Assembly (NCBI GenBank): GCA_049322915.1
Contig: JBMOPW010000014.1
Span: forward strand, 64,001-128,000
Length of the DNA: 64,000 bases
Source: Candidatus Zhuqueibacterota bacterium
Lineage (GTDB): Bacteria; Zhuqueibacterota; Zhuqueibacteria; Thermofontimicrobiales; Thermofontimicrobiaceae
Direction: 5' to 3'
A program made the translations under genes and the position numbers. Shown in pieces: positions 5,380 to 32,679 of the stretch; the first letter of the stretch is position 1, and each line of letters starts with the position of its first letter. Below the pieces are notes generated by a model that did no database searches, was not told where the DNA came from, and saw nothing but the letters and a program-made list of their open reading frames with translations.

Positions 5380-5698
5380 TGATTCTGGCTGAGTTTTTAA
5401 TTGATGAAAAATAAAAGAGTTAATCAATTTCTAAGTTCCGATTGTTATCTAAAAAATTCACTAAAAATTAGCTTTGAAAGAGACACTGTATCAGTGATAA
5501 AACACATTGAATAATGAGATCGGAGATCCTGACTGAAATTTCTTCTCTCTAACACGATTTAATATAATGATGTTGAGGAAATTAAAAAGTGTTATGGCTC
5601 ACTTTTTCAGAATGTTATAAAAAGTTGATTATTCTATGTTACACGTGGTATGAATTTGGGACAAAAATGTAGGATGTAGAAAGTATGTTTCAATAAAG

Positions 5699-7012
5699 TT
5701 ATGAGGTTTTATTAAAAGAATGCGACTTTTTATCCGGTACTTTGTTCAGAATGAGAAGCCCTATCAGTATTAATAGACTGAGAGAAAAGATAGCCGCTTT
5801 GTATTTGAATACATCTCCATATTCGCTGAATAAACTCACGATGCCGGCCCAAACCAGAGGGCCGAATATGGCGGCCAATTTTCCTGACAAAGAGTACAGT
5901 CCAAAGAATTCGCCCAACATTTCTTTCGGCACAAGGGAAATAAGCAGCGGTCGCGCGGATGTCCAGGTTGAACCCATGAAAATACCGATTAATCCGCCGA
6001 GAACCCAGAATAGCCATGCTTTCATCGTCAGCACCAGCGCAGTCAGGCACACAATCCAACCGATGAGAACGATCATTAATGTCCGCTTTGGCCCAAAATG
6101 GTCGGTCATAATTCCGAAGAAAGCAGATCCAATGATGGCAGAAGGGATGAGAACTATAAAAAAATTAGTCGTACTGCTGGCTGAAAATCCCATGACTTTC
6201 TGAGTGTAAACGGCCATGAAAATAATGACCGTCTCGATGGCATCTTCATAGAAAAATTTGGCGACTAAAAAGCGGGCAACGCCTGGATATTTTTTAGTGT
6301 TGGAAATTCCATCCAGCACCTTTCTGAATGAATTTTTTATGCCCAACCGTTTGACACTGAGTTGTGATTTAGTTGGCTCATCTTTCACAAAAAAGAAAAT
6401 TGGCAAGGCAAAAATCAAGAACAGCAGGGCGGTTGGAATGAATGCTGCGACGCTTCCTCCCGAGTTGAGAAATGGGATGTTCAGTCCCGAGAAATGGCCA
6501 TTCACAAACGGCCGGACCAACAGCAGGCCGACGATTGAGCCGAGGTATCCCACGGCAACGCCATACCCTGAAACACGTCCAATGCTTTTTTCCGAACTGA
6601 CCTGAGGCAGAAGGGCATTATAAAATACCAGTCCTCCCTGGTACGAGTAATTCGCAATGACGAAGAATACAATGGCCCAGGCTACCATTGTCATTTTACC
6701 TGAGAAAGCATAGCCTGCAATGCCAATGCCGGCTGTGAACACGATACAAATCAGGGTATAGAGAAGCAGGAAGGGCATCTTTCGTCGATACCGATCCGAA
6801 ATCTCTCCCAGAATTGGTAAAGTGAGCGCGACCAGGATCATGGAAAACGAATTGGCGTAGCTGACATAATGATCGCCCAGCGCCAGTTCGACAACGATCC
6901 ATGTGGTAAAATACATGGAAACGACGTTCATGGAATAGATCGTATTGGCAAAGTCGTAAAGGATCCATGATAAAGTGGCGACGAGAGCGGGTTGTCTGTT
7001 TGATTCGTTCAT
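5699..7012 (-). CDS. MFS transporter, UMF1/Atg22-like
   Basis: SWILYDFAN, FYNALLP, GRVSGYG.A.GYLG, GEFFGLY..SGK; about 12 TM. Start moved to MNESNR because the longer start overlaps a terminator. Confidence 0.88.
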   Translation of the reverse strand: MNESNRQPALVATLSWILYDFANTIYSMNVVSMYFTTWIVVELALGDHYVSYANSFSMILVALTLPILGEISDRYRRKMPFLLLYTLICIVFTAGIGIAGYAFSGKMTMVAWAIVFFVIANYSYQGGLVFYNALLPQVSSEKSIGRVSGYGVAVGYLGSIVGLLLVRPFVNGHFSGLNIPFLNSGGSVAAFIPTALLFLIFALPIFFFVKDEPTKSQLSVKRLGIKNSFRKVLDGISNTKKYPGVARFLVAKFFYEDAIETVIIFMAVYTQKVMGFSASSTTNFFIVLIPSAIIGSAFFGIMTDHFGPKRTLMIVLIGWIVCLTALVLTMKAWLFWVLGGLIGIFMGSTWTSARPLLISLVPKEMLGEFFGLYSLSGKLAAIFGPLVWAGIVSLFSEYGDVFKYKAAIFSLSLLILIGLLILNKVPDKKSHSFNKTS

Positions 7013-7045: not shown

Positions 7046-7087
7046 AAAAAACCGCATCTCAAAAGCGAAGATTGGATGCGGTTTTTT
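7046..7087. terminator. Intrinsic terminator ending the mgl operon
   Basis: aaaaaaccgcatc/gatgcggtttttt 13-bp inverted repeat with A and T tails. Confidence 0.65.
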
Positions 7088-7109
7088 AAATTTTACATTG
7101 AGTTCATAG

Positions 7110-7481
7110 TTATTCCGATACTTCCTGAATCAATCGGACCAGTCGATTTGTCAATCCGCGATAGGTTTTCTGAGGCGGAATGATCAGAGCAAGGACAACA
7201 GACTGTTCGAACGCATGGAAAAAGCGGAAAATAATCTTTCGCTTATTAAGACCCTCAATCGTTAATTCATGAATTTCAGAGATGCCTCCCATCACGTCAG
7301 CCATCCTCTGGATTTCCTGAAATTGAATGGACAATTCAACAAGTCGATCTTCGGGAACGATTTCATTGCTTTTTGCCTGGGCTAAAGACAGCCCCTCCTG
7401 GGAAAGCAAAAAAGCCATTTCATAATTTCCTGATTTCATGACTTCGTTCATAAAATTTTCTATTTTTTCCTGAGGTCCCAT
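7110..7481 (-). CDS. Roadblock/LC7-like protein (second MglB-like or MglC-like)
   Basis: 123 aa with AFLLSQEGLSLA roadblock-type strand-turn, directly downstream of mglA. Confidence 0.6.
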   Translation of the reverse strand: MGPQEKIENFMNEVMKSGNYEMAFLLSQEGLSLAQAKSNEIVPEDRLVELSIQFQEIQRMADVMGGISEIHELTIEGLNKRKIIFRFFHAFEQSVVLALIIPPQKTYRGLTNRLVRLIQEVSE

Positions 7482-15598: not shown

Positions 15599-16508
15599 GG
15601 GTTGCCTCCCCTTGTTTCTTGGTGACGGTTTCGATAAATATTTCGTGAAGCGACAATTCCATGATTTCAAACCGGTTGATCGTCACTTCCTGAATAGCGG
15701 CCTTGAGCACCTGCTGAATGGTTGCGGAGTCGGACGGATGAATAACCGTAAATTTTTCATTCTCCTCGAACGCGCTGACAAGTTTCTTGTCGTTCAAAAA
15801 TTTCGCCGATCCCTCAAATTCCATTCGGATGCTGTTTTTCCTGTATCTCTTTTTGATCTCGGACAAGTTCCCGCTCAGCACGACTCGGCCATGATTGATC
15901 AGGCAGATGGAATCGCACAGCTTTTCAACCTGCTCCATGAGATGCGTGGAAAAGATGATGGTGGAACCGCTGTTTTTCTGTTCCAGCATGACGTCTTTGA
16001 TGAGCTCGCTATTCACAGGGTCCAGGCCGGTGAACGGTTCGTCCAGAATTATCAGCCTGGGATTGTGGATGACAGTGGAAATGAACTGGATTTTTTGCTG
16101 CATGCCACGCGACAAAGCTTCCAACTTTTTATCGATCCATTCAGACATCTCAAAACGTTCCAGCCATAATTTAATGCGGGCTTTGGCATCGGATGGTTTT
16201 ACGCCTTTCATCTCGGCTAAAAAAACAATGAGCTCTCCCACTTTCATTTTTTTGTAAAGACCGCGCTCCTCCGGCAGATACCCAACATTGTTCCGTAGTT
16301 CCTGTGAGTTTGGCTTCCCAAATAAGCTGATTTTACCCTTGTCCGGAATAATGATGTCCATAATCATGCGGATGGTCGTGGTTTTCCCTGCGCCGTTGGG
16401 ACCTAACAGGCCGAAGATAACGCCGGGGGGAAGCTCCAGATTGAGATCCTGTACCGCATTGACATCTTTAAAGGATTTGTAGACATGTTCAATACTTAGA
16501 ATAGACAC
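15591..16508 (-). CDS. ABC-2 transporter ATP-binding protein
   Basis: GPNGAGKTT, YLPEERGLY, LSRGMQQK, ILDEPF. Confidence 0.95.
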   Translation of the reverse strand: MSILSIEHVYKSFKDVNAVQDLNLELPPGVIFGLLGPNGAGKTTTIRMIMDIIIPDKGKISLFGKPNSQELRNNVGYLPEERGLYKKMKVGELIVFLAEMKGVKPSDAKARIKLWLERFEMSEWIDKKLEALSRGMQQKIQFISTVIHNPRLIILDEPFTGLDPVNSELIKDVMLEQKNSGSTIIFSTHLMEQVEKLCDSICLINHGRVVLSGNLSEIKKRYRKNSIRMEFEGSAKFLNDKKLVSAFEENEKFTVIHPSDSATIQQVLKAAIQEVTINRFEIMELSLHEIFIETVTKKQGEATRE

Positions 16509-16794
16509 ATTTCCCTCCTGTTTGTAGTTTTGATTTTGATCGTTCGAGCCAGGTTTATGCAGGTAATATTATACTGAAATTATAAAAAAAGTTACACGAT
16601 TCATTGCCGTCGGGTTCACCAAAGAGTATGCAACCGGCGTGCAATCCCGCCCATAGTCAGGCAACGCCGCCCCGCCGTAGAATTGCCGTGCAATGATGTT
16701 CGGGCCTTTTTGATGGAAGCTCACAATTTCGTTTCTGGAAAAGGGCATCCCTTACTCTCTAATACAAAGGGACAAGCGAACCATTTGTCCTGCT

Positions 16795-16874
16795 GCCCGC
16801 CGGTGATTTATTCCATTTTTATCATTCAGCAATTTCAAGAATTCTTTGAAGTCTGGAGGTAGCACCATGGCCAT
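16795..16874 (-). pseudogene. N-terminal remnant of a small nucleotidyltransferase-like gene
   Basis: MAMVLPPDFKEFLKLLNDKN followed by an out-of-frame ITGG, resembling the LPPDFKEFL.LLN...V.YL..GG start of small nucleotidyltransferase-like proteins; similarity ends there. Confidence 0.55.
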
Positions 16875-17023
16875 AATTAATCCTTACTTAAAAATTCTAT
16901 ATGTTGCATTCGTTCAATGGGTGTTCGGGAAAGCCAATAATCTTTATCATTGGATTGATCTGATAACGAGACAACTGAAAAGAAGCGCTTGTCCAATTTT
17001 AAATCATTCAAATTTTTATCCAT
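16822..17023 (-). pseudogene. Frameshifted small protein, partner of the nucleotidyltransferase remnant
   Basis: MDKNLNDLKLDKRFFSVVSLSDQSNDKDYWLSRTPIERMQHIEFL, then after a one-base shift near 16887 RINYGHGATSRLQRILEIAE*. Confidence 0.6.
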
Positions 17024-17073
17024 ACAATTAACTCACGATCTTTTTTTGTTGATGATACATTCAGATTCCAAAT

Positions 17074-17860
17074 TGCGAACGTAACGAATCACTGGCTTTC
17101 AAGATGCGCAGCGAATTGAAAATCCAGTGCATTCGATTGTGTGTGCCTGGCATGGCGCGTGTATGTTTAATCTAATTGAATATACACAAATTATCCAGAG
17201 GGTGCAAGTCTCTTATGAGCGAGTTGGTGAAGCCCATTAGTAAGCCGCAAGGGCGTTCCGGGTGACCGGAAATCTGAAAGCCGAAGGTGCGACTTGGCGT
17301 GAAGCGGGACTGCAAGAATCTGTCCGGACGAATCCGCCTTAGGCGGATAGATGCAGCCGACATAGACTCAACGGATAAGCGTCTTACTCAGGGATATCTA
17401 CTCAATTCAGCCAAGGCGGACTGGACTTAACATACATAGTTCCGGATGGGGCTCAACCGAATACCATGCCCTGGCCTGATCGGTGGCTATTGCCAATCAG
17501 GAGCCTTCGGGATACCACGAACCACAATAGCAATGCATGTTGAGTTTCATAGTCCGTCAGTTGGTGAATGATTGAGTAGAAGTCAGCCGAAGCCATAGTA
17601 GCCAAACGCCAGTGGTAATGCGCTGGACATAGCGAAGCCTAGTCCTGAGCTTGGCGAAGGAGGCTGAACATTAACCCGTTCTGGATTGATTTGGGATGAA
17701 CATGGACGAATGGTAGTTTCCAAGTCCTGTTCAAGCCCAGTTTAAGAAAGAACACAGTCAATACACACTTGACTCATGGTTAATGAACCGTCCCGAAGCG
17801 TCGGGATGGTGCGAGATGCGCACTCCGGTCTATTGGCCGGAGCCTCCTAGTCGATTAGAG
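17074..17860 (-). other. Integron attC site (72 bp: 17074-17140 plus 17856-17860), split by the intron
   Basis: Rejoined minus strand: R'' ctctAAC, 5 nt, L'' aatGcact with an extra base, stem-loop, L' agtgatt, 6 nt, R' GTTcgca. It begins 2 nt after the stop of the 17863 gene. Confidence 0.8.
17141..17855 (+). mobile_element. ORF-less group IIC-attC intron (715 nt)
   Basis: 5' GTGTGCCTGGCATGGCGC; DI motifs (gggtgcaagtc, taagccgcaaggg, gtcttactcagggatatc); DIII aagtcagccgaagccatagtag; short DIV; GAACCG..TGGTGCGAGA DV remnant; DVI ending CTAGTCGAT; exon junction TTGT/TA. Confidence 0.85.
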
Positions 17861-17862
17861 TG

Positions 17863-19014
17863 CTATAAGAACTTGTATCTATAAACTTTTACGCGATTTA
17901 CTCCGAACTCATCAATATGCAAGGCGTATACTTTATTTCTCCTGATATAATATGGCATCACTTTGCTACCATTCCATTTAAAAAAAACCTTTTTGATATA
18001 TATTCCATCACTGTTGAAAATATCATATGTGTATCCCTCTCCCTCATCTTCAAAGGTGAGTACCCAAAAATTGTTCTTATCGTCTGTGAGAAAACGGAAA
18101 TAGGATATTCGAAATGCTGGCTTTTTATCCGGAATTAACTTTTGATCGAAAGGATTGACCGATAATTTCATTTTTTCAGATTCAGTCACCTCTACAGGCC
18201 TCCATTTACGACCGAACAGTAATTTCAAATTCCCATTTTTATCAAAGACTGAAAACTTATACATATCAGATTTGCCAATGATAAGCTCCCCGTTTTGCCT
18301 CAACGCATAATTAACCGATCCGCTTTCGTATCCCGTTCTCCACAGTCCGCCACGTGTCATAGGAGTACCATTCTGTCCTTTTAATTGAGTGATTTGATTT
18401 ATCTTCGAATTGTCCGCATTATATCTTGAGAAAGATATCGTTTCCTCCCCTGTAGAATAATTCCAATTCTCTCTTACCGAATAAAAGTAGACATCGTTCT
18501 CATCAATCCCTATTAATTCGCGACTAAAGCCAATTTGAAAGGAATTAATGAAATCATTGTTGTTTGAAAAGCGACTGATTCTTGATCCATTTCCATATTC
18601 ATGCACTACTATCCTGTTTTGACTTTCGAAGAACACCCTTGCCGGCTCAATGAACTCTCCCGGACCTTGACCTTTCCGGCCAATTATAGAAACAAAAACT
18701 CCTGAACTATCATATATTTTTACCACATTATCTGAATAATCAACTACATAGATATTGCCTGATGGATCAATATTGATATCTTTGATAGTATTAAAGGTAC
18801 TTTCAATTGTTCCATCCTTTTCCCCGATAGAAAGTAATTCTATTAATTCAATTGAACTGGATCTATTTTTAGGATAACTGGGATTAAAAACAGTTTGAAT
18901 ATTCTCCCGTTTTCCAATTTTTACTGGATACTCACTTCTGCCACAATTGAATGCTTGGAAAATAACAATAAAATATAGACCGAGAAAAATCGGTTTATTC
19001 ATCATTATCACCAT
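17863..19014 (-). CDS. 6-bladed beta-propeller (NHL-like) putative lipoprotein; integron cassette gene
   Basis: IDPSGNIYVVD, IGRKGQGPGEF, D.K.NFWV, YDIFNSDG; AT-rich; attC directly after the stop. Confidence 0.85.
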   Translation of the reverse strand: MVIMMNKPIFLGLYFIVIFQAFNCGRSEYPVKIGKRENIQTVFNPSYPKNRSSSIELIELLSIGEKDGTIESTFNTIKDINIDPSGNIYVVDYSDNVVKIYDSSGVFVSIIGRKGQGPGEFIEPARVFFESQNRIVVHEYGNGSRISRFSNNNDFINSFQIGFSRELIGIDENDVYFYSVRENWNYSTGEETISFSRYNADNSKINQITQLKGQNGTPMTRGGLWRTGYESGSVNYALRQNGELIIGKSDMYKFSVFDKNGNLKLLFGRKWRPVEVTESEKMKLSVNPFDQKLIPDKKPAFRISYFRFLTDDKNNFWVLTFEDEGEGYTYDIFNSDGIYIKKVFFKWNGSKVMPYYIRRNKVYALHIDEFGVNRVKVYRYKFL

Positions 19015-19164
19015 TTTTCACCTCATAACAACTAATTCTACAAACCTGTATAACCTCACCATACAATTTAAAATTTCTATTCGAAAAATCAATAAAAATA
19101 TTTGCTTCAGTTGAGCACGGGTAATGGATCAAAATATTTTGGCAGAGCGGAATAATATGAAAAA

Positions 19165-19190
19165 CGGGATGTTGTCAGGAAACATCCGGT
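19165..19190 (-). terminator. Putative terminator after the patatin gene
   Basis: ggatgtt/aacatcc stem followed by a T run on the minus strand. Confidence 0.4.
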
Positions 19191-19237
19191 TCCTATCTAA
19201 AATTGATGAAATGGAAAAAGTTAAATCGATTTAAAAC

Positions 19238-20026
19238 CTATTGTTTTTCAACTCCCCAAACGGCGGTCTCTATTTTTGTCATCGACTTCCGCGCGGCGTC
19301 ATAACCGCGCTGGAACAGGGCGTCGGCCTGACGAAAATCATGGGGATTGAGCCCCTGCAAATCCGGAATAATCGTCACATCGCCGTTTGGCGCATGGAGC
19401 GCAATCTGGTTCAATGCCAGTTGGGACGAAGTGATCAAAACCTGAATGATGCTATCCGGCGCTTTTTTCGTCGAAACAGGCGGAAGCAATTTCACGGCAA
19501 TGACGCACTGAGCGCCCATTTCCCGAACCACGTTCGTCGGGATAAAGTTGAGCACGCCGCCATCGACGAAAATTTTTTTATCGATCACCATCGGGGTGAA
19601 CACGCCGGGAATCGCGCAACTGGCGCGAACCGCCTGGGAGACCGGCCCATACTTGAAAATTTTCTCTGTGCCCGAGGTTAGTTCCACGGCAATGGCTGCA
19701 AATTTTTTGGGAAGCATCGGGATGTCAATCGGTCCCAGTTCTGATTCGATGAATCGCTCCAGCAGGGAACTGTCCAGCAGGCCCAGTTTGGGCAGGGTGA
19801 GTTTGCTGATTTTGGTCCACGAAAGCTGTTTCACAATTTCGAACATGCGCTCGCTGGTGTAGCCGGCGGCTAAAAAGGCGCCGACAGCCGAGCCGGCGCT
19901 GGTTCCGGCAACGATGTCGATGGGGATATTGTTTTCTTCCAGCGCTTTGATCACACCGATGTGGGCGATTCCCAAAACAGCGCCGCCGCTGAGCGCCAAT
20001 CCAATTTTTTTATTCTGTTTTTCCAT
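19238..20026 (-). CDS. Patatin-like phospholipase (RssA/NTE family)
   Basis: LSGGAVLGIAHIG, GTSAG nucleophile elbow, DGG. Confidence 0.93.
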   Translation of the reverse strand: MEKQNKKIGLALSGGAVLGIAHIGVIKALEENNIPIDIVAGTSAGSAVGAFLAAGYTSERMFEIVKQLSWTKISKLTLPKLGLLDSSLLERFIESELGPIDIPMLPKKFAAIAVELTSGTEKIFKYGPVSQAVRASCAIPGVFTPMVIDKKIFVDGGVLNFIPTNVVREMGAQCVIAVKLLPPVSTKKAPDSIIQVLITSSQLALNQIALHAPNGDVTIIPDLQGLNPHDFRQADALFQRGYDAARKSMTKIETAVWGVEKQ

Positions 20027-24204: not shown

Positions 24205-27200
24205 ATGTGGGTCAGGAGAATTGTTCTTAGTCTTGTGTTCATAGTGTCCGCTTGTTCCATCAAGGCGGAGTTGAAGCAACCCATTTCCACGGACGAAAAA
24301 ACGACGGCTGCGCCAAGTCAGTTTTTCGATCTTTCCCAGGTGTATCAACAGGTGACCACGCACCCGGAAATGGACGTATTCCCGGCGATCTCGCCAAACG
24401 GCCAGTGGCTGGCGTTCGCTTCGAGACGAAGCGGCAATATGGACATCTGGGTGAAATCAACCACCGGCGGACCGGCTTTTCAAATCAGCACGCATCGTTC
24501 GGATGACGTCATGCCGACCTGGTCGTCCGATGGAAAGAAGCTCGTGTTCGTTTCATTCCGGGAAGATGCGGCCGGCGATTTATGGAGCGTTTCTCTTCGT
24601 GAAAAATACCGCGAATTGGTGGCGAAAGGCTCCCCGAAAAAACTGACTACCTACCTGGGTACGGATGTCTCCCCTAATTTCTCGCCCAATGGAAAATATA
24701 TCGCATTCACCTCCGATCGGGGAGGAGCGAACAATATTCATGTGCTGCACCTGAAACGGAAGAAAATTTTTCAGATTACCCGGAATGGCGCCATTCATCC
24801 CAACTGGTCGCCGGACGGAAAGCGAATTGTGTACGTCTCCTTCTCAGAGAACCCGGAGCGCAATGGTCAGGTCTTTTTCTCCGAATTGAATTTCAAGTCT
24901 GATGAGCCAGTCGTTGTCCGCGAAGTTGCGGTCACGACCGGCGCCTCGAACGACGCTTTTCCCGCATGGAGCTCTGACGGGAAGAGTGTTCTTGTCACGC
25001 GCTATGATCGCGATACCAATCATGACGGCGCTATAAATCCGGATGACCTGCCGAACCTGTGGAAAATAATTGTTGACCAATCCGATGGATCACAAGCCAG
25101 CCTGCTAAATCCAGCCGAAATTGACACCGCCTCGCTTCCGCTTCACGATGCTCGGGTATTTCGGGAGATGCAGTTGCTGCCGTCGCTGCATTATGACTAT
25201 CAACCTGTGTGCAGCCACGATGGAAAAGTGTATTACATTTCCCAGCGCAGCGGCAATGAGGATATCTGGGCTGTGCCGGAAGACGGCCCAATTCCCCGTC
25301 AGAAAGAGGGTTTTTTACAATATCAATTTGCATCGAGCTATTTTCCGCTTCCAGAGACTGATTTGATTTTCGTGAAAAATCATGCGACAGAGACCCGGGA
25401 GCAATTGGAAACCCGATTGATTGCTTTTCAACGGCTGAACGATTTTTTCCCGGAAGAAGATATCTGGGTCGGCTGGTCGCTCTACGAAATAGCGCGGACA
25501 TACGCTGCGCTGGAAATGACGACCATTGCCGGAACGTATCTTGAAGAGATCATCCGGCAGCATCAGGATAATCAGGAACTCGTTGGCCATGCAGAGCTGA
25601 AATTGTACGAGTTGAAGTACAAAGCCGGAAGCGGTCACCTGGAACCGCAGGTACAGGCGCTCGATGGCATCGCTGCGAAATATCACAACGCGCCGGCCAT
25701 CGCCGCGAAGGCGGAATTTTTCAAAGGGGAGACCTATTTTTTGGCCGGCCGGGAGTCGGCTGCTTTACAGGCGTTTAAAAGCCTGGTTGAGAAGTATTCG
25801 GATCAGACTCATTTCTGCGCCCAGGCGCAAATTCTGATTGGGGACATCTATGCCGGTTTCGGCGAACGGGAAGAAGTGGCGAGCGCCTATTTGCACGTCG
25901 TTCAGAATTATCCCCGGGAAGCCCACTGGATCGATGTGGCGCTGGATAAAGTGTTGGCCTTGCAGCGCGTCGAAGATTCATTTTCGAAAATTACCGGCTA
26001 CCGCGCCATTTTAACCCAATACAAACCGTACGACCGGTTGTTAGCGCGGACGCAATTGAAGATAGGCGAGGAGTTTTTTCATCAGCAGCAATTTGATGCA
26101 GCGATTCAGGAATTGACACTGGTGGAAGCGCAGTATCCGCAGCAGCGGGAAGAAATCGCCCGGGCCTCGCTCATCATCGCCCGGGTCTACCGCCGGATGA
26201 GCGAAGAATTAATGGCCATTTCGACCTATAAAAAAGTCATCCAGGATTTTGGCGATGTGCAAAGCGGCCTGTACGTGGTTCAGGCCAAAGAAGAACTGCT
26301 TGAGTTATACCTCCAGAGCGGCGACCGTTATCGCATGGCCGGCGATATGCAGGCTGCAAATTCCCGGTATCGCGGCGCCATTCAAATCATGCCTGGATCT
26401 CTGGATGCCCATCGGGGGCTGGTTGCCACCATGTACAGCCTCGGTGATATTGATGAGGCGGTGAAAAATTATGAAAAAGTCTGCCTGAAAAATCCTGACG
26501 ATGAGACCATGCGGTACATCCTGGGGCTGTGCTATTCCTATCAGGCGACTGAGGCAAGCGACCGAAGCGGCAGTCTCGATGATTTCAAGATCGGGCTGAT
26601 GAAAAAATCGAATGAGGCCATCGAAGATGCGTTGTCTAAAAATTATCGGCTCATTCCGGCCTATTTGACGCTGAGCTTCAATTATGAGGCGATTGAAAAG
26701 TATGAGCGGTATCAGCGGATGAAGCCATCGGGATTTTTCAAATCAATGGCAACGACAACGATTGCCCCGATACAATCGATTTATCGCATGCTGACATTTC
26801 AAAAAGAAAAAACGCCGCAGCGCTGGTTTGAAGAGGCCATTGACGTGCTCATCACAGCGATTTCCCTCAATGATGAAACAGTGCATCCGAATCTTGAGAG
26901 TGAGCTGGCCCTGAACCTGGCTTCCAATTATTACAATTTGCAGGAGTTTGGGTTTGAGCGGGCCTATTATTACTATCACGTGAAAATGCAATACGACGCC
27001 TCGTTTGCGAATCAACGGACCGAGGCGGAGATCTATAAACGTATGGGCCATTGCGCGCTGGTCGTTGAGGATTTTCAAAAAGGGCCGGTCTATCTGAAAA
27101 AGGCCATTGATTTGTACTCCGCGCTGGGGGACGAACAGAATAAGCTGCTCAATATCAAACGATTGGCGCTCCTCTATCAGCTTGCCGGTGAAAACAAAGA

Positions 27201-30200
27201 CAGTGATGACATCGCTGAATCGGTTGAATACGAGAAATCAGTGGACTATTTCAAAATGGCGGCGGCTCTGGATGAAAAAGCCCGGCGGTATAATATGCTC
27301 GAAGTGGGGTATCGGAGCATTGCCTATAATTATCAGGTTTTAAACGACGAGGATGAATCGGTTCGCTATGCAGAAAAAGCGCTGGATCTGATTCGGCAGG
27401 GAAAAGTCACAGAGGTCAAAGCAAAGCCAAACTGGATAAAGATCGGGATTCTGGGCGTCGAATTTCCAGTCTGGAATCTCGGCCAGATTGGAACAGGCGC
27501 GTCCACCGCCGCTGAAGGCTTCACCACGGATGAAGAAGTGGCGCTACTGTACTCAATCATTGGAAACGCCCATTTGACAAAGCGATCCATCGATGGGGCG
27601 CTTCTGTACATGGAAAAGAAGCTGCACATCTACCGGGAGCGGGAGGACAGACTTGCCGAAGCGATCATTTTGAACAACATGGGCTATCTGAACTACATCG
27701 ATTTCAGATATGATTTAGCCTGGCAACATTTTAAAAAATCGCTTCTCCTTTGCAATGAAGAAAAAAATGTTCCCGGCGCCCTGGCCAATATCTACAATCT
27801 GGGTCGGTTGGGCGTATTCATTTCGAATTTCAATGCCCTGCCGACGCAATGGAGGCAGGATACGCTGCAGCAGGACATTGTGCTGAGGACCTCAGAATAT
27901 CAATCGGCAAGCCTCGATTACCTCAGGCAGGGACTTGAACTCATTGAAAAAGAGCAGCTCGGCTACACTCAGGAGAAGATGCAGATTTACAATATCCTTG
28001 GGACTATTCATTTCATTAATAATTCAACCGCGGCAAATGGGTTCGCTGATGATGAATACGAGCGGATCCAGCGTCAGCTCGAACAACTGGATGGCTACTC
28101 TGTAGCCGATAGTTGTTACCGAATCGCGCTGGATCTGGCGCTACAGGAGAATTCCGAGCGGTTCCAGATCACGGTTCGGAATAACCTCGGAAACCTGGCC
28201 TTCGCTGTTGGCGATATAGATGATAGCATCGGGCAATTTACAGTGGCCAGGGAACTGGCCATCAAACAAAATTGGCACTCGCAGCTTTGGAAGATCGATT
28301 TTATTCTGGGACGAATATTCTCGGTTCATGGGGACGCCTCCCCTGTTTCAACGCAACATCATGACGCTTCGTTTTATTTCAATGAAGCGATCGTTTCGCT
28401 TGAACGGGATACCTATCAGTTTCGGGCAGCTAATCTCTCGCCGTTTTATCTGGCCCAGGTGCGGCAGCTTTACGAAGAGGTGGTTGATTTTGAAATTGCC
28501 AATGGGAATTTCATCAGCGGCCTGAGACTGACCGAGCAGTTCCACGGCAAGCAATTTCTCGACGTCGTGAGCGGCCATAAATTACAATTGAAAAAAGAGC
28601 GCCATAAAATATTTTTGGGCAATGCCAAATTCCTCGTTGAAGAGCTGGCATCGCTGGATCAGCGGATAAAAAACGCGGCAAAGAGAGAAGAGCCGAGTCG
28701 GCAGAAATTAGCCCAGTGGATTGACACGAAGAGAAGATATGAACAGGAATATCAGGAACTCCTGAAGGATTTAAAAGAAGAGGATCCGGAATTGGAGGCG
28801 TTCATCCATGTCGAACCGGTCACGTTCAGGCAGGTGCAGGAATGTCTCGGCCCGAAATCGCTCATCGTGGACTATTTCATGACCGACTCCGGCGTTCATA
28901 TCTGGCTCGTCAGCGCCGACTCGGTGAACCATGTTCGCGTGGAAATCTCCCGGGAGAGGCTGGAGCAATCGATCTCGGCTTTTTGCGCTTCACTGGAATC
29001 CTCGGTCGCAGACACAGTGGCCGCCTCCGAGATGTCCCGGGTTTTCATCGACCCGGTGAAACAGCGTTTAGCTCCGTACACGAATATCATCGTCGTGACT
29101 GATGGGCTCATTCGCATGATCCCCTTTTCCTATTTGATCAATTTTACCGGCGATGAAGCATCGCGCCTGAAGACTGTGTCAACCGCGCCGTCGCTGGCGA
29201 ATTATTATTTCGGTTACGGGAAGAGAAAAATCCGGGGATCAAATCTGCTGCTGGTCACAGATCAGCCCAAAGCCGGGCAAGACTTCATCGGCTTTAACGC
29301 CGTCAGGCTGGACGCTTCCACTCCCGCAGACGACAGGAAAGGCCGATTCGTCGAAGCGCTCCAGCAATCGGATATCATCTTTTTCGATGCGGAGCTGGAC
29401 GGGCGAATCGTGGATCCGCTGATGGCGCAGATAGCGCCCCGCTTGCCGGGCAAGCCATTCAGTTTCACGCTGAAAGATTTTTACTCAATGGATCTGGCGG
29501 CGTCCGTCGTCGCCATCAACGGCCATCAGGAATCCGGACAAGTCTCTTCGCTGATTCTTGAGAGGGCATTGATGTATGCCGGAGCGCCCAGTATTGTCCA
29601 ATCGTTGTGGCCCGGCAGTGATGCACGATTCTGGAACCACTTCTTTGAAGCGCTCCAGGATTATCCTCCGGCAAAAGCCCTTGTAAAAGCTCAGGAAACG
29701 CTGAAGAATGAAGGCGCGCCGACCGAAGTCTGGGCCGGCTATCAGGTGGTTGGTTTTGAGGGCATGACCGATGATCAGGAGCAGCAGTTCGCCAGGGACA
29801 GTTTTCAATTGACAGTGAACGATGCATCGGACGATTTTCAAAAGGAAAAATGGGGCGATGCGGTTAAGAAATTTGAACAGGCGCTGATAATGGCCAAAAA
29901 GGAGGGGAATCCCGAGGCGATTGCCGACCTGCAAACCATCATCATTCAAAGCGCGGCGCGGGCGGGAAACTATGACAAAGCCATTCAGTTCCAGCTTGAC
30001 CTGATCGGGAAAGCAGAGAATGAAGGGGCCGTTCAGCAACTCATTGAAGGCTATAACAATTTATTCGTCTTTTACACCAACAGCGGGAACTACGAGCGGG
30101 CGATATTTTTCCAGAATAAATTTTTGGAGTTAGCCAAGGCATACAATCAGCCGACGGAAATCGCCGGGTCCTATTACAAATTGGGACTGGTCCATGAGCG

Positions 30201-32679
30201 GAGCGGCGATTTTGAAAAAGCGCTGGAATATTTCACCAATGCGCTGACGCTGTATCATCAATTGGACGACAGCCTGAACACTGCCCAATGCCACAAAGAC
30301 CTGGGGCGAATTTATCTGCTCAAGCTGGATAATTATTCGAAAGCCATCGAGCACCAGGAATCCGCGCTGAAAATTCTGCAGCAGATGCATCAGACCGAAG
30401 CGATGATTGAGATTTTACAAAACCTGGGCTTCAGCAACGAGCGTCTGGCAAATTACAAAACCTCGCTCAAATACCAGCAGGACGCATTTGAAATAGCCCG
30501 GCAATTTGGAAATAAAAAATGGATAGCGCTGTCCCAACACTATCTGTCCAATCTCAACTGGAAGATGGGAAATTACCAGCAGGCTATCAACTTCCAGCAG
30601 CAGGCGAATGCTATCTTTCAGGAGTTGAATGACGTCAAACTGCAGGTGGCGAGCCTGTCCACGCAAGGGCTGATTTTGATGAGCCTGGCGCAACTGGATG
30701 AAGCGACCGCGGCTGAACATCAGGCGCTGGAATTGGCCAAGTCCATCAACGACGAGCATGACATTGCCACCATTCATAAGAATCTGGGATTGATTTACCG
30801 CGCCAGGGAGAAGTGGGATCTGGCGCTGCAGGAATTCGAGCGGGCGACACAAATTGATGAAGCTATAAATTTCAAGCGGGGCATGAGCTATGATTACCGC
30901 GATCTGGGGAGCATCTACGCTCAGCAGGGTCGGTTTGATCTGGCTCAGGCCTACTTCAGAAAAGGTCTGGTGTTGAGCAAAGAGATTCTGGATGCCCAAA
31001 ATCAGGTTCAATGTTATTATGAAATTGCGCGAACGCACATGCTCACCGGCCGAATGGAAGCCGCGCTGGATACGCTGAGATTGGCCTCGACACTGGCGGA
31101 ACAATTATTCATTCCGGATGTGCAGTGGCGCGCGCAGCGGCTGCTGGGGCAAATCTACGACAGGCAATCCAATCTGCAGGAGAGCATTTCGGCCTATACA
31201 CGCGCGCTGGAAATTATCGAGGTGATGCGTTCACAAATCAAGGTGGAAGATTTTAAATCAGGATTCATCGATGATAAATTGGTTGTGTATCATGAGTTGA
31301 TCACGCTTTATTTGAAAATTGACCAGCCTGAAAAAGCGCTGGAGATTGTCGAGCGAGCCAAGTCCCGCAATTTTATTGATATGCTGGCCAACAAGGACAT
31401 TCATTTCAGCGGAGCGTTCAATGAGCAGCAATTCGCGCAAGGCAAGGGGCTTGAAGATGAACTGCGACGCGTTCAAAACGAGATTGCCGGGTTGCTGATG
31501 AAGGGCGCGACTGTTACAGACCCGGAAAAGGCGAAATTATCCGACCTGGATCAGCAACAAAATGAACTGAAAAGACAATACGAGGCGTTCATCAGTCAGT
31601 TGAAAACTATAAACCCGGAACTGGCCGGCATGGTGCAGGTGGAGCCGCTCCGTGCCGATTCATTGAAGGCGGCATTGCCGGACAGCGCCATGGTGATCGA
31701 ATATTTTTATACAGAGGACCAGCTCTTCATTTTTGGAATGACGCAACGCCGCGTGGTTGCCCACAGCCGTCCGATTGCGGATAAACAGATCATGGCCATG
31801 GTGAGCGAATTTCGGGACGCCATCAGCAGCCAGCGTTCGGTGAATGCCATTGCCGGCGGATTGTACGACTGGCTCATCCTTCCGTTGGAAGGCGAGCTGA
31901 CGAATATCAATCATATTGTGATTGTTCCTCACGGCGTCCTTCACTATCTCCCCTTCGCGGCGTTGATGGATAAAAACCAGGGCTATTTGATTCACAACTA
32001 CGCGCTTTCGCTGGCGCCCAGTTCCATGGTGCTGCAACTATGCCTGGAGAAGGGCGGGCGTTTTGTGAACGCGGATAACTGGATGCCAAAAATCGCAGCG
32101 TTCGGGAATCCGGATTTGAACAATGCCCAGCTCGACCTGCCCTTTGCGGAGAAAGAAGTTGAGAGCGTGGAATTGTTGTATCCCGATGTGACAGCGTATC
32201 TGCGGGGAAAAGCAACGGAGACGCAATTCATACAATCGAGCCGGCAATCGCAGGTCGTTCTGATGTCCTGCCACGGTGAGTTTGACGCGGCAAATCCCTT
32301 ATTCTCTTCCCTGCTCCTGGCTCCGGACCAGACCAATGATGGACGATTGGAAGCGCATGAAATTTTCGGGCTGGAGATGGATAGCTATCTCATTGCCATG
32401 AGCGCCTGTGAAACAGGGATGGCCTCGATTTCGGTGGGCGATGAAGTGATCGGATTGTCGCGCAGTTTCATTTATGCCGGCGCGTCATCGCTGTTATCCA
32501 GTCTGTGGAAGGTCGATGATCTGGCCACCGCCGTGATGGTGAAGCGCTTTTTCCGCTATTTGAAAGAAGGAAAATCGCGGGCCGAATCCCTGAGGCTGGC
32601 CATGAATTTCGTCAGTTCCACCATCAACGCGCATCCGGCGTACTGGGCGGCGTTTAATTTGACCGGCGATTTCAGATAA
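24205..32679 (+). CDS. Giant lipoprotein: PD40/TolB-like propeller, TPRs, degenerate CHAT, TPRs, intact CHAT protease domain
   Basis: Lipobox VSA-C; SPNG/WSSDG/WSPDG repeats; many TPRs; C-terminal IVPHGVLHYLPF, SCHG, SACETG, SLWKVDD, WAAF. Confidence 0.9.
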   Translation: MWVRRIVLSLVFIVSACSIKAELKQPISTDEKTTAAPSQFFDLSQVYQQVTTHPEMDVFPAISPNGQWLAFASRRSGNMDIWVKSTTGGPAFQISTHRSDDVMPTWSSDGKKLVFVSFREDAAGDLWSVSLREKYRELVAKGSPKKLTTYLGTDVSPNFSPNGKYIAFTSDRGGANNIHVLHLKRKKIFQITRNGAIHPNWSPDGKRIVYVSFSENPERNGQVFFSELNFKSDEPVVVREVAVTTGASNDAFPAWSSDGKSVLVTRYDRDTNHDGAINPDDLPNLWKIIVDQSDGSQASLLNPAEIDTASLPLHDARVFREMQLLPSLHYDYQPVCSHDGKVYYISQRSGNEDIWAVPEDGPIPRQKEGFLQYQFASSYFPLPETDLIFVKNHATETREQLETRLIAFQRLNDFFPEEDIWVGWSLYEIARTYAALEMTTIAGTYLEEIIRQHQDNQELVGHAELKLYELKYKAGSGHLEPQVQALDGIAAKYHNAPAIAAKAEFFKGETYFLAGRESAALQAFKSLVEKYSDQTHFCAQAQILIGDIYAGFGEREEVASAYLHVVQNYPREAHWIDVALDKVLALQRVEDSFSKITGYRAILTQYKPYDRLLARTQLKIGEEFFHQQQFDAAIQELTLVEAQYPQQREEIARASLIIARVYRRMSEELMAISTYKKVIQDFGDVQSGLYVVQAKEELLELYLQSGDRYRMAGDMQAANSRYRGAIQIMPGSLDAHRGLVATMYSLGDIDEAVKNYEKVCLKNPDDETMRYILGLCYSYQATEASDRSGSLDDFKIGLMKKSNEAIEDALSKNYRLIPAYLTLSFNYEAIEKYERYQRMKPSGFFKSMATTTIAPIQSIYRMLTFQKEKTPQRWFEEAIDVLITAISLNDETVHPNLESELALNLASNYYNLQEFGFERAYYYYHVKMQYDASFANQRTEAEIYKRMGHCALVVEDFQKGPVYLKKAIDLYSALGDEQNKLLNIKRLALLYQLAGENKDSDDIAESVEYEKSVDYFKMAAALDEKARRYNMLEVGYRSIAYNYQVLNDEDESVRYAEKALDLIRQGKVTEVKAKPNWIKIGILGVEFPVWNLGQIGTGASTAAEGFTTDEEVALLYSIIGNAHLTKRSIDGALLYMEKKLHIYREREDRLAEAIILNNMGYLNYIDFRYDLAWQHFKKSLLLCNEEKNVPGALANIYNLGRLGVFISNFNALPTQWRQDTLQQDIVLRTSEYQSASLDYLRQGLELIEKEQLGYTQEKMQIYNILGTIHFINNSTAANGFADDEYERIQRQLEQLDGYSVADSCYRIALDLALQENSERFQITVRNNLGNLAFAVGDIDDSIGQFTVARELAIKQNWHSQLWKIDFILGRIFSVHGDASPVSTQHHDASFYFNEAIVSLERDTYQFRAANLSPFYLAQVRQLYEEVVDFEIANGNFISGLRLTEQFHGKQFLDVVSGHKLQLKKERHKIFLGNAKFLVEELASLDQRIKNAAKREEPSRQKLAQWIDTKRRYEQEYQELLKDLKEEDPELEAFIHVEPVTFRQVQECLGPKSLIVDYFMTDSGVHIWLVSADSVNHVRVEISRERLEQSISAFCASLESSVADTVAASEMSRVFIDPVKQRLAPYTNIIVVTDGLIRMIPFSYLINFTGDEASRLKTVSTAPSLANYYFGYGKRKIRGSNLLLVTDQPKAGQDFIGFNAVRLDASTPADDRKGRFVEALQQSDIIFFDAELDGRIVDPLMAQIAPRLPGKPFSFTLKDFYSMDLAASVVAINGHQESGQVSSLILERALMYAGAPSIVQSLWPGSDARFWNHFFEALQDYPPAKALVKAQETLKNEGAPTEVWAGYQVVGFEGMTDDQEQQFARDSFQLTVNDASDDFQKEKWGDAVKKFEQALIMAKKEGNPEAIADLQTIIIQSAARAGNYDKAIQFQLDLIGKAENEGAVQQLIEGYNNLFVFYTNSGNYERAIFFQNKFLELAKAYNQPTEIAGSYYKLGLVHERSGDFEKALEYFTNALTLYHQLDDSLNTAQCHKDLGRIYLLKLDNYSKAIEHQESALKILQQMHQTEAMIEILQNLGFSNERLANYKTSLKYQQDAFEIARQFGNKKWIALSQHYLSNLNWKMGNYQQAINFQQQANAIFQELNDVKLQVASLSTQGLILMSLAQLDEATAAEHQALELAKSINDEHDIATIHKNLGLIYRAREKWDLALQEFERATQIDEAINFKRGMSYDYRDLGSIYAQQGRFDLAQAYFRKGLVLSKEILDAQNQVQCYYEIARTHMLTGRMEAALDTLRLASTLAEQLFIPDVQWRAQRLLGQIYDRQSNLQESISAYTRALEIIEVMRSQIKVEDFKSGFIDDKLVVYHELITLYLKIDQPEKALEIVERAKSRNFIDMLANKDIHFSGAFNEQQFAQGKGLEDELRRVQNEIAGLLMKGATVTDPEKAKLSDLDQQQNELKRQYEAFISQLKTINPELAGMVQVEPLRADSLKAALPDSAMVIEYFYTEDQLFIFGMTQRRVVAHSRPIADKQIMAMVSEFRDAISSQRSVNAIAGGLYDWLILPLEGELTNINHIVIVPHGVLHYLPFAALMDKNQGYLIHNYALSLAPSSMVLQLCLEKGGRFVNADNWMPKIAAFGNPDLNNAQLDLPFAEKEVESVELLYPDVTAYLRGKATETQFIQSSRQSQVVLMSCHGEFDAANPLFSSLLLAPDQTNDGRLEAHEIFGLEMDSYLIAMSACETGMASISVGDEVIGLSRSFIYAGASSLLSSLWKVDDLATAVMVKRFFRYLKEGKSRAESLRLAMNFVSSTINAHPAYWAAFNLTGDFR

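What the first reader, a model, noticed from the sequence alone, without database searches (positions are those of the whole stretch)
17141..17855. ORF-less group IIC intron inserted exactly into an attC site
Seen: all six intron domains in 715 nt; DIV is only about 115 nt (cattaacc 17669 / ggttaatg 17785) with no reverse transcriptase; removing it restores TTGT/TA in the attC R'' box on the bottom strand, antisense to the cassette gene. Known: IIC-attC introns target this junction and normally encode an RT/maturase. Inference: a non-autonomous derivative moved in trans (or deleted after insertion) that also blocks excision of the cassette.
Basis: partly seen in the sequence, partly recalled or inferred. 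Interest (0 to 1): 0.78.

Follow-up and report, generated by a model that had tools for sequence, protein, structure and literature searches.

The report
Decayed ORF-less intron in attC site
This is a real but worn-out copy of a gene-less "jumping" self-splicing intron sitting backwards inside an integron-type recombination hairpin; it belongs to a small gene-less lineage found in three related uncultured bacteria, and this copy has lost parts that the RNA needs to work.

Summary
Window 17141-17855 (+) is a 715-nt derivative of a class C group II intron with no reverse transcriptase. It is inserted at TTGT|T in the R'' half of an attC-like hairpin, antisense to the neighbouring gene.

"All six domains" does not hold:
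- about 66 nt of a domain I arm are missing;
- domain V is cut down to its lower helix, with no bulge;
- three pairs of domain VI are broken.

Rfam finds neither the domain I model RF02001 nor the domain V/VI model RF00029 here. Intact relatives score 85-135 and 39-49 bits.

RT-encoding parents of 1921 nt occur in metagenome contigs. The ORF is replaced by a 9-12-nt filler that closes a hairpin. The same junction is found in 3 of 167 genomes of the phylum (KSB1), at three different sites, so ORF loss came before this insertion.

The assembled genome has no intron RT. Contigs of the best-holding public run show sibling copies, one of which runs on into what reads like the start of the RT gene.

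Verdict: a non-autonomous IIC-attC-type lineage; this copy is most likely inert. The scan had already noted ORF-less introns at attC sites in other genomes. Moderate interest.

The parts
17082..17140 (+). Main body of the attC-like hairpin, read on the bottom strand of the cassette: an R'-type box ACGTAAC, L-type arms CACTGG/CCAGTG, a central palindrome, and the first two bases (GT) of the split R'' complement. The 5' exon ends TTGT.
   Evidence: sequence. (inverted repeat I11); the empty-site model folds at -13.5 kcal/mol, z -3.5; an uninterrupted homologue in G001:C11 folds as R box, unpaired spacer and L box, with extrahelical bases on the 3' arm.
17141..17855 (+). ORF-less, decayed group IIC-type intron, 715 nt.
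17141..17397 (+). Domain I remnant: the 5' GTGTG and the first hairpins are conserved with the family, but the domain is damaged.
   Evidence: alignment; one A.C mispair at 17218 in the ATGGGC/GCCCAT hairpin. (no RF02001 match).
17279..17300 (+). Insertion of 21-22 nt in D1, absent from the five other aligned family members. The 5' fragment of the same-genus genome (L039, G001:C87) has a related insertion at this place.
17333..17347 (+). Short hairpin TCCGCCTTAGGCGGA that stands where relatives have a 79-nt D1 arm. That arm holds the conserved loop CCAAYAAAC (candidate EBS1) and a receptor-like internal loop.
   Evidence: alignment; contigs of runs X1 and X3 carry 66 extra letters between 17330 and 17331.
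17398..17579 (+). Expanded domain II (closing helix CTACTCAAT/ATTGAGTAG). It is 83% identical to the same part of an RT-encoding intron in G024:C148. Other family members have 15-110 nt here.
17580..17668 (+). J2/3 and domain III, with a copy-specific 24-nt insertion at about 17634-17657.
   Evidence: RF01998, 31.9 bits, at 17550-17662.. (84% identity to enterobacterial integron introns over intron positions 424-480).
17669..17785 (+). Domain IV without an ORF. It consists of the parent's DIV leader (to 17758), the filler CAATACACACTT (17759-17770), which makes the hairpin AGTCAA/TTGACT, and the parent's DIV 3' strand.
   Evidence: parent. (same junction in G045 and G084). (fold).
17786..17810 (+). 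Truncated domain V: a 10-bp helix capped by a 4-nt loop. The bulge, the upper helix and the loop of the canonical 34-nt DV are missing.
17811..17855 (+). Domain VI remnant. The distal stem CTCCGG/CCGGAG is kept. Three pairs in the lower half of the domain (the two helices on either side of the bulged A) are non-standard. Ends ...GTCGAT.
17856..17862 (+). The 3' exon start TAGAGTG. Together with GT at 17139-17140 it reads GTTAGAG, the complement of an R''-type box CTCTAAC lying 2 nt after the stop codon of the - strand gene.
17863..19014 (-). Cassette-like gene: a 383-aa beta-propeller protein (DUF5128/NHL-like). It is absent from the syntenic locus of the same-genus genome.

Best explanation
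Window 17141-17855 is a dead or nearly dead copy of a non-autonomous (ORF-less) sublineage of a class C group II intron family. The family lives in the attC recombination sites of KSB1 (Zhuqueibacterota) bacteria.

The RT-encoding parent is 1921 nt long with a 424-aa class C IEP that has no endonuclease domain. It inserts into the folded bottom strand of attC hairpins at TTGT|T, antisense to the cassette. Shown: the layout of many copies. Inferred: the mechanism, which is reverse splicing into single-stranded DNA guided by a short EBS1-IBS1 pairing plus the hairpin, followed by reverse transcription.

In one ancestor the 1.27-kb ORF was replaced by a 9-12-nt filler that closes DIV with a small hairpin. 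The roughly 100-nt DIV leader, the usual IEP binding region, was kept. This ORF-less form then reached at least three different sites in three families of the class. Most likely it was mobilised by the IEP of a sibling intron in trans.

The window copy landed in a lone attC-like site next to a variable beta-propeller gene. After that it lost a D1 arm with the candidate EBS1. It now carries a DV cut down to its lower helix and three broken DVI pairs.

It therefore most likely neither splices nor moves now. What it does today is passive: it splits the R'' box from the rest of the attC. Sub-claim odds:
- group II intron derivative: 0.97
- attC-type target: 0.8
- ORF loss before insertion: 0.75
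- spread by retromobility in trans rather than DNA-level copying: 0.55
- ribozyme now inactive: 0.8
For: Family and ends:
- blastn finds relatives in 12 of 61 related genomes.
- 10 of 17 distinct 5' exons end TTGT and 16 of 17 end GT.
- 11 of 11 distinct 3' exons start with T and 7 of 11 with TAG.

Parent:
- In metagenome loci L062, L063 and L065, intron positions up to 621 and from 630 on are separated by about 1272 nt.
- L065 is a complete 1921-nt intron with a 424-aa IEP.
- Its best solved relatives are GsI-IIC RT (364.6 bits) and another class C RT.
- It is 41% identical to the IEP of an intron that sits between aadA1 and its attC in an E. coli plasmid integron.

Shared ORF-less junction:
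- G045 has the same end points with the filler CAAGCAATT.
- G084 has the filler CAAAACACACTT.
- Matches spanning the junction occur in 3 of 167 genomes of the phylum.
- The three 3' exons differ.
- DIV folds closed in the window copy and in G045, z -4.0 and -6.0.
- The 585-nt G045 copy passes all three Rfam models: 114.1, 41.9 and 42 bits.

attC:
- The uninterrupted homologous site in G001:C11 folds as an attC bottom strand.
- Integron integrases above the TIGR02249 cut-off are present in 25 of 61 related genomes.
- G024:C23 has copies in three successive small-gene cassettes.

Decay:
- No RF02001 or RF00029 match in the window copy, against 85-135 bits and 39-49 bits in relatives.
- D1 arm loss.
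- Canonical DV and DVI of the family are supported by pairs changed on both sides (8 of 30 pairs).
- The window's DV aligns only to the lower helix, and its DVI has 3 non-standard pairs.

Siblings in the sample:
- In run X1 the flanks have depth about 80 and intron pieces 84-184 each.
- One contig carries the 66 missing letters.
- A 1094-nt contig leaves the window sequence at 17758, where the parent's ORF begins.
Against: - No intron-type RT is in the assembled genome (96% complete). The two RVT_1 genes are a Cas6-linked RT-TPR-primase fusion and a 357-aa RT without a maturase domain. The only family IEP remnant is a frameshifted tail at C36:218572-218933.
- The RT-bearing sibling is seen only as unitig-like contigs of a metagenome run. 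It cannot be assigned to this genome.
- In G024:C23 one ribozyme-dead deletion form (D1 joined to the maturase tail) sits at three attC sites. A shared deletion can therefore spread without retromobility, for example by gene conversion.
- The window copy is a mosaic. It has the ORF-less DIV of G045/G084, which have a canonical DV, but the short DV of same-genus copies, which keep a maturase tail. That needs recombination in any scenario.
- The attC call rests on structure, box motifs and homology. No attC covariance model was available. This genome and its congener have no integron integrase. Only one such site lies at this locus, among housekeeping-like genes.
- The EBS1 assignment to the lost arm is inferred from complementarity, not from covariation.
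- Whether the parent IEP belongs to the IIC-attC clade was not tested with a tree.
Confidence: 0.6

Rival explanations
1. The copy entered as, or beside, an autonomous RT-encoding intron. It got its ORF-less state later, at the DNA level, by gene conversion or homologous recombination with another ORF-less copy. No RNA-level movement of an ORF-less element took place.
For: - G024:C23 holds three copies of one ribozyme-dead deletion form at three attC sites, so DNA-level copying of deletion forms occurs in these arrays.
- The window copy is a mosaic of parts whose nearest relatives lie in different copies.
- The attC arms next to copies resemble one another, which favours recombination.
Against: - The three carriers of the junction belong to three families of the class and sit at unrelated sites. 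Conversion would need an ORF-less donor and a resident full-length copy together in each genome.
- The G084 copy is cut at its 5' end inside DIV, as expected from incomplete reverse transcription of an ORF-less RNA.
- The ORF-less DIV keeps a stable closed fold, with a GCAA loop on the junction hairpin in G045.
Confidence: 0.25
2. The element is still a working non-autonomous intron. Its compact DV (lower helix only) is a functional variant, perhaps helped by a sibling's IEP or RNA.
For: - The short DV is found at four different sites in the genus (2 in G000, 2 in G001), and a similar hairpin in 2 copies in G066.
- In run X1 the DV-DVI bin sums to depth 466 against about 80 in the flanks.
- The lower helix keeps 10 pairs through changes on both strands relative to the family consensus.
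Against: - All six copies with a short DV are ORF-less, internally deleted or cut at the 5' end.
- No RT-encoding copy with this DV was seen.
- The two-base bulge of DV is part of the catalytic metal site in every group II intron studied (established knowledge, recalled).
- The window copy also lacks a D1 arm and has three broken DVI pairs.
- No RF00029 match at E<=10.
Confidence: 0.07
3. The target is not an attC. It is just one of the hairpins, such as a terminator-like stem-loop, that class C introns use in general.
For: - There is no integron integrase in this genome or in G001.
- The locus is flanked by ordinary genes: an ABC transporter, patatin and PFK.
- The R box of the window site has only 4 pairs and is not part of the minimum-energy fold.
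Against: - No run of T follows the hairpin.
- RYYYAAC/GTTRRRY-like boxes lie at both ends about 64 nt apart, with the extra bases on the 3' arm.
- The homologous G001:C11 site has a 6-bp R box GCTAAC/GTTAGC, an unpaired spacer and extrahelical bases.
- The family's 3' exons read TAGAC, TAGCC and the like, i.e. GTCTAAC/GGCTAAC-type cores.
- The gene next to the site is variable between congeners.
Confidence: 0.15

Closest known systems
Group IIC-attC introns (S.ma.I2 type). The copy in E. coli plasmid NZ_MN256759, between aadA1 and its attC, served as control here. Literature seen: passages of PMC3001079 and PMC7923331.
   Same: - Class C ribozyme family, and an IEP without an endonuclease domain in the parent.
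- Insertion in the bottom strand of attC, in the R'' box at TTGT|T, antisense to the cassette.
- The control's 5' exon ends ...GAATTGT and its 3' exon starts TAGAC.
- The D3 region is 84% identical over 57 nt.
   Different: - No IEP gene.
- DV truncated, a D1 arm missing and DVI mispaired.
- Host is an uncultured KSB1 bacterium with no integron integrase in the assembly.
- The parent IEP is only 41% identical to the control's IEP, and its place in the IIC-attC clade was not tested.
- No outward promoter above chance was found.
ORF-less bacterial group II introns that depend on the IEP of related introns in trans (review PMC4424553, passages read).
   Same: - The ORF is lost while the DIV stub is kept.
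- Related RT-encoding introns exist in the same community.
- The same ORF-less form is found at several sites.
   Different: - The review says such introns nearly always sit in genomes that hold a related IEP-encoding intron. None is in this assembly.
- This copy is not an intact ribozyme.
- The target is an attC rather than a homing site.
UHB.F1, a truncated IIC-attC intron in a soda-lake cassette array (PMC7923331, passages read).
   Same: A degenerate IIC-attC-type copy, antisense in a cassette context, among toxin-antitoxin cassettes. The related loci G000:C36 and G024:C23 look the same way.
   Different: UHB.F1 is cut at the 5' end and keeps its IEP gene (with frameshifts) and typical DV and DVI. 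The window copy has both ends, no IEP gene and a truncated DV.
Earlier finding of this scan, e1-3971084 (a 635-base ORF-less group IIC intron at an attC site in another genome).
   Same: The same kind of element: a class C intron without an RT in an attC of a cassette array.
   Different: It lies on other DNA. Sequence relatedness to the window copy was not seen in the look-up by sequence. Its note describes an intact lineage, whereas the window copy is decayed.

Membership tests
Group II intron (ribozyme) | Conserved 5' GUGYG and 3' AY ends, and domain I-III architecture recognised by the Rfam D1-D4 models. | tested here: inconclusive
   The ends GTGTG...GAT are present. RF01998 scores 31.9 bits, under its gathering score of 35, and there is no RF02001 match. 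Homology to intact introns that score 85-135 bits on RF02001 is unambiguous.
Group II intron (ribozyme) | Domain V: a hairpin of about 34 nt with a two-base bulge and a terminal loop (RF00029). | tested here: not met
   No RF00029 match at E<=10. A family-specific model aligns only the 10-bp lower helix; 13 model positions are replaced by 4 nt. The minimum-energy fold has no bulge.
Group II intron (ribozyme) | Domain VI with a basal helix and a bulged adenosine 7-8 nt from the 3' end. | tested here: not met
   Three of 17 DVI pairs are non-standard. The basal helix is not formed in the minimum-energy fold, unlike in G045 and L065.
Group IIC-attC introns | Inserted in the bottom strand of an attC site at R'', consensus TTGT/T, opposite to cassette transcription. 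| tested here: met
   5' exon ...GATTGT, 3' exon TAGAG, and the neighbouring gene on the opposite strand ending 2 nt from the box. The attC nature is supported by the uninterrupted homologue in G001:C11. No attC model was run.
Group IIC-attC introns | IEP of bacterial class C, in the monophyletic attC subclade. | not tested
   The window copy has no IEP. The parent-type IEP (L065) is class C-like by its best solved relatives and is 41% identical to an integron-borne IEP. No tree with labelled references was built.
Group IIC-attC introns | Internal outward-facing promoter (Pout) near the 5' end, as described for several members. | tested here: not met
   The consensus scan gives 2 promoter-like sites in 16400-18000 against 3.0 +/- 1.5 in shuffles, and none lies inside the intron on the - strand. 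The promoter type of this phylum is unknown, so this is weak evidence.
Non-autonomous (ORF-less) group II introns mobilised in trans | No IEP gene, but a DIV stub is kept. | tested here: met
Non-autonomous (ORF-less) group II introns mobilised in trans | The same ORF-less form at several independent sites. | tested here: met
   The junction with a homologous filler occurs in G000, G045 and G084, i.e. 3 of 167 genomes, with different flanks.
Non-autonomous (ORF-less) group II introns mobilised in trans | A related IEP-encoding intron in the same genome. | tested here: not met
   None in the assembly. A candidate is seen only in contigs of run X1. One copy is cut by the end of contig C36 after 123 nt.
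Non-autonomous (ORF-less) group II introns mobilised in trans | An intact ribozyme able to reverse-splice. | tested here: not met
   See the lesions in D1, DV and DVI. It is met by the G045 copy.

The most novel reading that the evidence does not exclude
The bulge-less, 25-nt 'compact' domain V is not damage. It would be a working variant, and introns carrying it kept inserting into attC sites. Four sites are known in this genus, a similar hairpin occurs in G066, and the DV-DVI region is about six-fold over-represented in the source-like sample. That would mean a group II intron lineage that is mobile without the canonical DV metal-binding bulge, or with DV function supplied in trans by a sibling.
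Probability: 0.07. Interest if true: 0.8.

Novelty: new member of a known kind. Interest (0 to 1): 0.38.

Why it matters

This locus and its relatives show that in an uncultured phylum rich in integrons the same intron type has produced several derivatives:
- a gene-less sublineage with a neatly re-closed domain IV;
- several other deletion forms that pile up in attC sites.

This bears on three questions: how cassette arrays are frozen or reshaped, how non-autonomous retroelements arise in bacteria, and how many such elements RT-based or DV-based surveys miss.

The window copy itself is a fossil and matters mostly as a marker of that history.

Tried and rejected
- Rfam at gathering thresholds on the whole window: nothing.
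- Promoter and terminator scan: nothing above shuffles.
- Search of the own genome for further copies of the window's attC sequence by blastn-short: only chance-level 12-16-nt hits.
- Pattern scan of genome contigs: 6 loci, of which only 1 is a family member, the same contig as G045:C32.
- Pattern scan of metagenome contigs: 12 loci. Six have only 22-34-nt local matches.
- Sequencing runs: no RNA holder listed. Only Logan contigs could be laid, so no starts, ends, strand or splicing could be read. Parts without cover in X2-X4 say nothing.
- RNAalifold on the first 175 nt pairs the 5' GUGUG with a downstream stretch. I take this as an artefact of the cut sequence and did not use it.
- Tyrosine recombinase fragment beside the C36 intron fragment: it matches only the N-terminal SAM-like domain and weakly XerC/D, not the integron integrase model.
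- Papers not held: PMC2525955, PMC2714756 and PMC2747902. What they say on ORF-less or EBS1 details of IIC-attC introns could not be checked. Three full-text searches listed no paper that describes an ORF-less IIC-attC intron among those I opened. Quiroga & Centron 2009 is not in the library.
- I considered a tree of IEPs to test clade membership. I dropped it because labelled reference sequences (attC-targeting against terminator-targeting) were not at hand.

Full report
**What is at the coordinates.** The stretch 17141-17855 on the + strand begins GTGTGCC and ends GTCGAT.
- The same ends recur in related copies from other genomes. Of 17 distinct 5' junctions, 10 have a 5' exon ending TTGT and 16 end GT. 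All 11 distinct 3' junctions are followed by T, and 7 of the 11 by TAG.
- In the window the 5' exon ends GATTGT and the 3' exon starts TAGAG. The insertion therefore splits a GTTAGAG box.
- The neighbouring 383-aa gene (17863-19014) lies on the - strand and stops 2 nt from that box. Read on the gene's strand, the box is an R''-type CTCTAAC, and the intron lies on the bottom strand, antisense.
- No ORF longer than 63 aa lies inside. Six-frame searches of the whole genome with RVT_1 and GIIM hit nothing here.

**Is it a complete intron? No.**
- Rfam at curated thresholds finds nothing in the 64-kb window.
- With permissive settings on 1.2 kb, only RF01998 (D2-D3) appears, at 31.9 bits against a gathering score of 35. 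A weak RF02003 match also appears. Neither RF02001 nor RF00029 appears at E<=10.
- Two RT-encoding controls were scanned the same way. An intron between aadA1 and its attC in an E. coli plasmid integron, and one in an Adhaeribacter plasmid, give RF02001 131.7 and 115 bits, RF01998 62.2 and 38.5, and RF00029 48.6 and 39.4.
- Family members from related genomes and metagenomes give RF02001 64-135 bits. For RF00029, G045 and L065 give 42 and 40.9 bits, and L063 gave no match at E<=0.1.
- An alignment of the window copy with five family members shows what is missing. A 79-nt arm of domain I is replaced by the 15-nt hairpin at 17333-17347. There is a 21-22-nt insertion at 17279-17300, a related form of which is also in the 5' fragment of the same-genus genome G001:C87 (L039). 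A 24-nt insertion lies in D3. One hairpin has an A.C mispair.
- Contigs of two public runs carry 66 extra letters exactly between 17330 and 17331. The arm loss is therefore particular to this copy.
- The lost arm holds the conserved loop CCAAYAAAC, which is complementary to the family's TTTGT exon ends. In the Adhaeribacter intron the loop ACCAACAAAC matches its TTGGT exon end. I take this as the candidate EBS1. That is inference, not covariation.

**Domains V and VI.**
- Ten canonical family members give a consensus with a 34-35-nt DV with a two-base bulge, and a DVI with a bulged A. In 8 of the 30 pairs at least one sequence has changed on both sides and kept the pair.
- A covariance model built from them aligns the window's DV only to the 10-bp lower helix. 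The 13 positions of bulge, upper helix and loop are replaced by 4 nt. Three DVI pairs are non-standard (52.3 bits, against 75-80 for three untrained family copies, two of them with an insert in the DV loop).
- The minimum-energy fold shows the same: no bulge, and no basal DVI helix.

**Where it came from.**
- A pattern from the DIV leader found RT-encoding relatives in metagenome contigs. In L062, L063 and L065, intron positions up to 621 and from 630 on are about 1272 nt apart.
- L065 is a complete 1921-nt intron with a 424-aa IEP. Its best solved relatives are class C RTs. It is 41% identical to the integron-borne E. coli IEP and 66% identical to the Adhaeribacter one.
- The window's DIV equals the parent's DIV leader up to 17758, then a 12-nt filler, then the parent's last 14 nt of DIV. 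Filler and flanks form the hairpin AGTCAA/TTGACT.
- The 585-nt copy in G045 has the same end points with the filler CAAGCAATT, which gives a GCAA loop. That contig is titled as a KSB1 MAG.
- A 5'-cut copy in G084 has the filler CAAAACACACTT.
- Matches that span the junction occur in 3 of 167 genomes of the phylum, in three families, with unrelated 3' exons. One deletion event followed by spread is the simplest reading.

**How it spread is less certain.**
- For retromobility in trans: the DIV leader is kept, the ribozyme of the G045 copy is intact, and the G084 copy is 5'-truncated.
- Against taking that for granted: G024:C23 holds three copies of one ribozyme-dead form (D1 joined to the maturase tail) in three successive attC sites. 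A deletion form can therefore be copied at the DNA level in these arrays.
- The window copy is itself a mosaic. Its D2 is 83% identical to that of an RT-encoding intron in G024:C148. Its DIV is that of G045/G084. Its short DV is shared with three differently truncated copies in the genus (G000:C36, G001:C87, G001:C8) that keep a maturase tail.

**Helper.**
- The assembly (96% complete) has no intron IEP. The two RVT_1 genes are a Cas6-linked RT-TPR-primase fusion and a 357-aa RT. The only family IEP remnant is a frameshifted tail.
- A second copy, 94% identical over 123 nt, is cut off by the end of contig C36.
- In contigs of the best-holding run, the flanks have depth about 80 while intron pieces have 84-184 each. 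There are two other 5' junctions.
- One 1094-nt contig leaves the window sequence at 17758, where the parent's ORF starts. This hints at an RT-encoding sibling in the same community. It does not place that sibling in this genome.

**The target.**
- The hairpin 17082-17140 plus the 3' exon start has RYYYAAC- and GTTRRRY-like boxes about 64 nt apart, with the extra bases on the 3' arm.
- Its central part is 86% identical to an uninterrupted site in G001:C11. That site folds as R box (6 bp), unpaired spacer and L box with extrahelical bases, and reads TTTGT|TAGCC at the equivalent place.
- The region 16534-19269 is not shared with the congener, whereas the ABC transporter, patatin and PFK genes around it are. 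The beta-propeller gene therefore looks acquired.
- Integron integrases are common in the class (25 of 61 genomes over the cut-off). None was found in G000, G001, G024 or G045.
- I therefore call it a lone attC-type site without a local integrase. That the insertion blocks excision is a reasonable inference from the split R box. It is untested, and moot without an integrase.

**Comparison with what is known.**
- The layout is that of IIC-attC introns (passages of PMC3001079 and PMC7923331).
- ORF-less bacterial group II introns are described as rare and as nearly always accompanied by a related IEP-encoding intron (passages of PMC4424553).
- I found no description of an ORF-less IIC-attC intron in three searches. 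Three key papers are not held.
- This scan had already noted ORF-less introns at attC sites in at least 15 other genomes, one of them of class C.

**Verdict.** This is a genuine but decayed member of a non-autonomous sublineage of a known kind of element. The one thing no explanation accounts for well is the short DV at four sites.

Noticed in passing
G000:C36 about 229690-230549 (L097), G000:C19 about 88040-88890 (L098), G000:C32 about 241265-242115 (L099), all on the - strand: A second, unrelated ORF-less group II intron family: three copies of about 850 nt with strong DV (RF00029 68-69 bits) and RF02012 at 80-83 bits. Each begins right after a GTTRRR core at the end of a long imperfect hairpin. 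The genome has no intron-type RT. The family resembles the ORF-less attC-targeting introns noted earlier by this scan in other genomes.
   Followed up: partly
G000:C36:230560-230789 (L002): One attC-like hairpin is invaded twice. The 850-nt intron sits after its GTTATA core on one strand. A copy of the window's family sits at TTGT on the other strand, cut by the contig end after 123 nt.
   Followed up: partly
G024:C23 (L030) 2803-3252, 5504-5758, 7070-7408: Three mini-derivatives with one and the same D1-to-maturase-tail junction lie in three successive cassette attC sites, among toxin-antitoxin-like small genes. They cannot be ribozymes, so the form was copied at the DNA level.
   Followed up: partly
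G000:C36:218252-219008 (L006 1172-1930): The N-terminal SAM-like domain of a tyrosine recombinase runs straight into a frameshifted maturase tail and the 3' end (short DV, DVI) of a family copy. HicA/HicB and DUF4160/DUF2442 pairs lie around it.
   Followed up: partly
G066:C230 (L105) and G066:C370 (L108): Another ORF-less class C derivative and a 5'-cut copy of it, with a compact DV hairpin similar to the window's (3 mismatches in 27 nt).
   Followed up: no
L089 1446-1549, L078 1458-1561, L028 1501-1603: Family copies whose DV terminal loop carries an inserted hairpin of about 25 nt, while the rest of DV and DVI stay canonical (62-80 bits on the family model).
   Followed up: no
G000:C34 about 429500-432900 (L004): A reverse transcriptase fused to TPR repeats and an archaeo-eukaryotic primase (TOTE) domain, next to a Cas6 gene.
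   Followed up: no
window 17279-17300 and 17634-17657; L087 (G106): Small hairpin modules of the type GCCGAAGG...GGCGAAG are inserted at different places in the ribozyme, in the window copy and in the G106 copy.
   Followed up: no
window 24205-32679 (+): A single 2824-aa open reading frame. Not examined.
   Followed up: no
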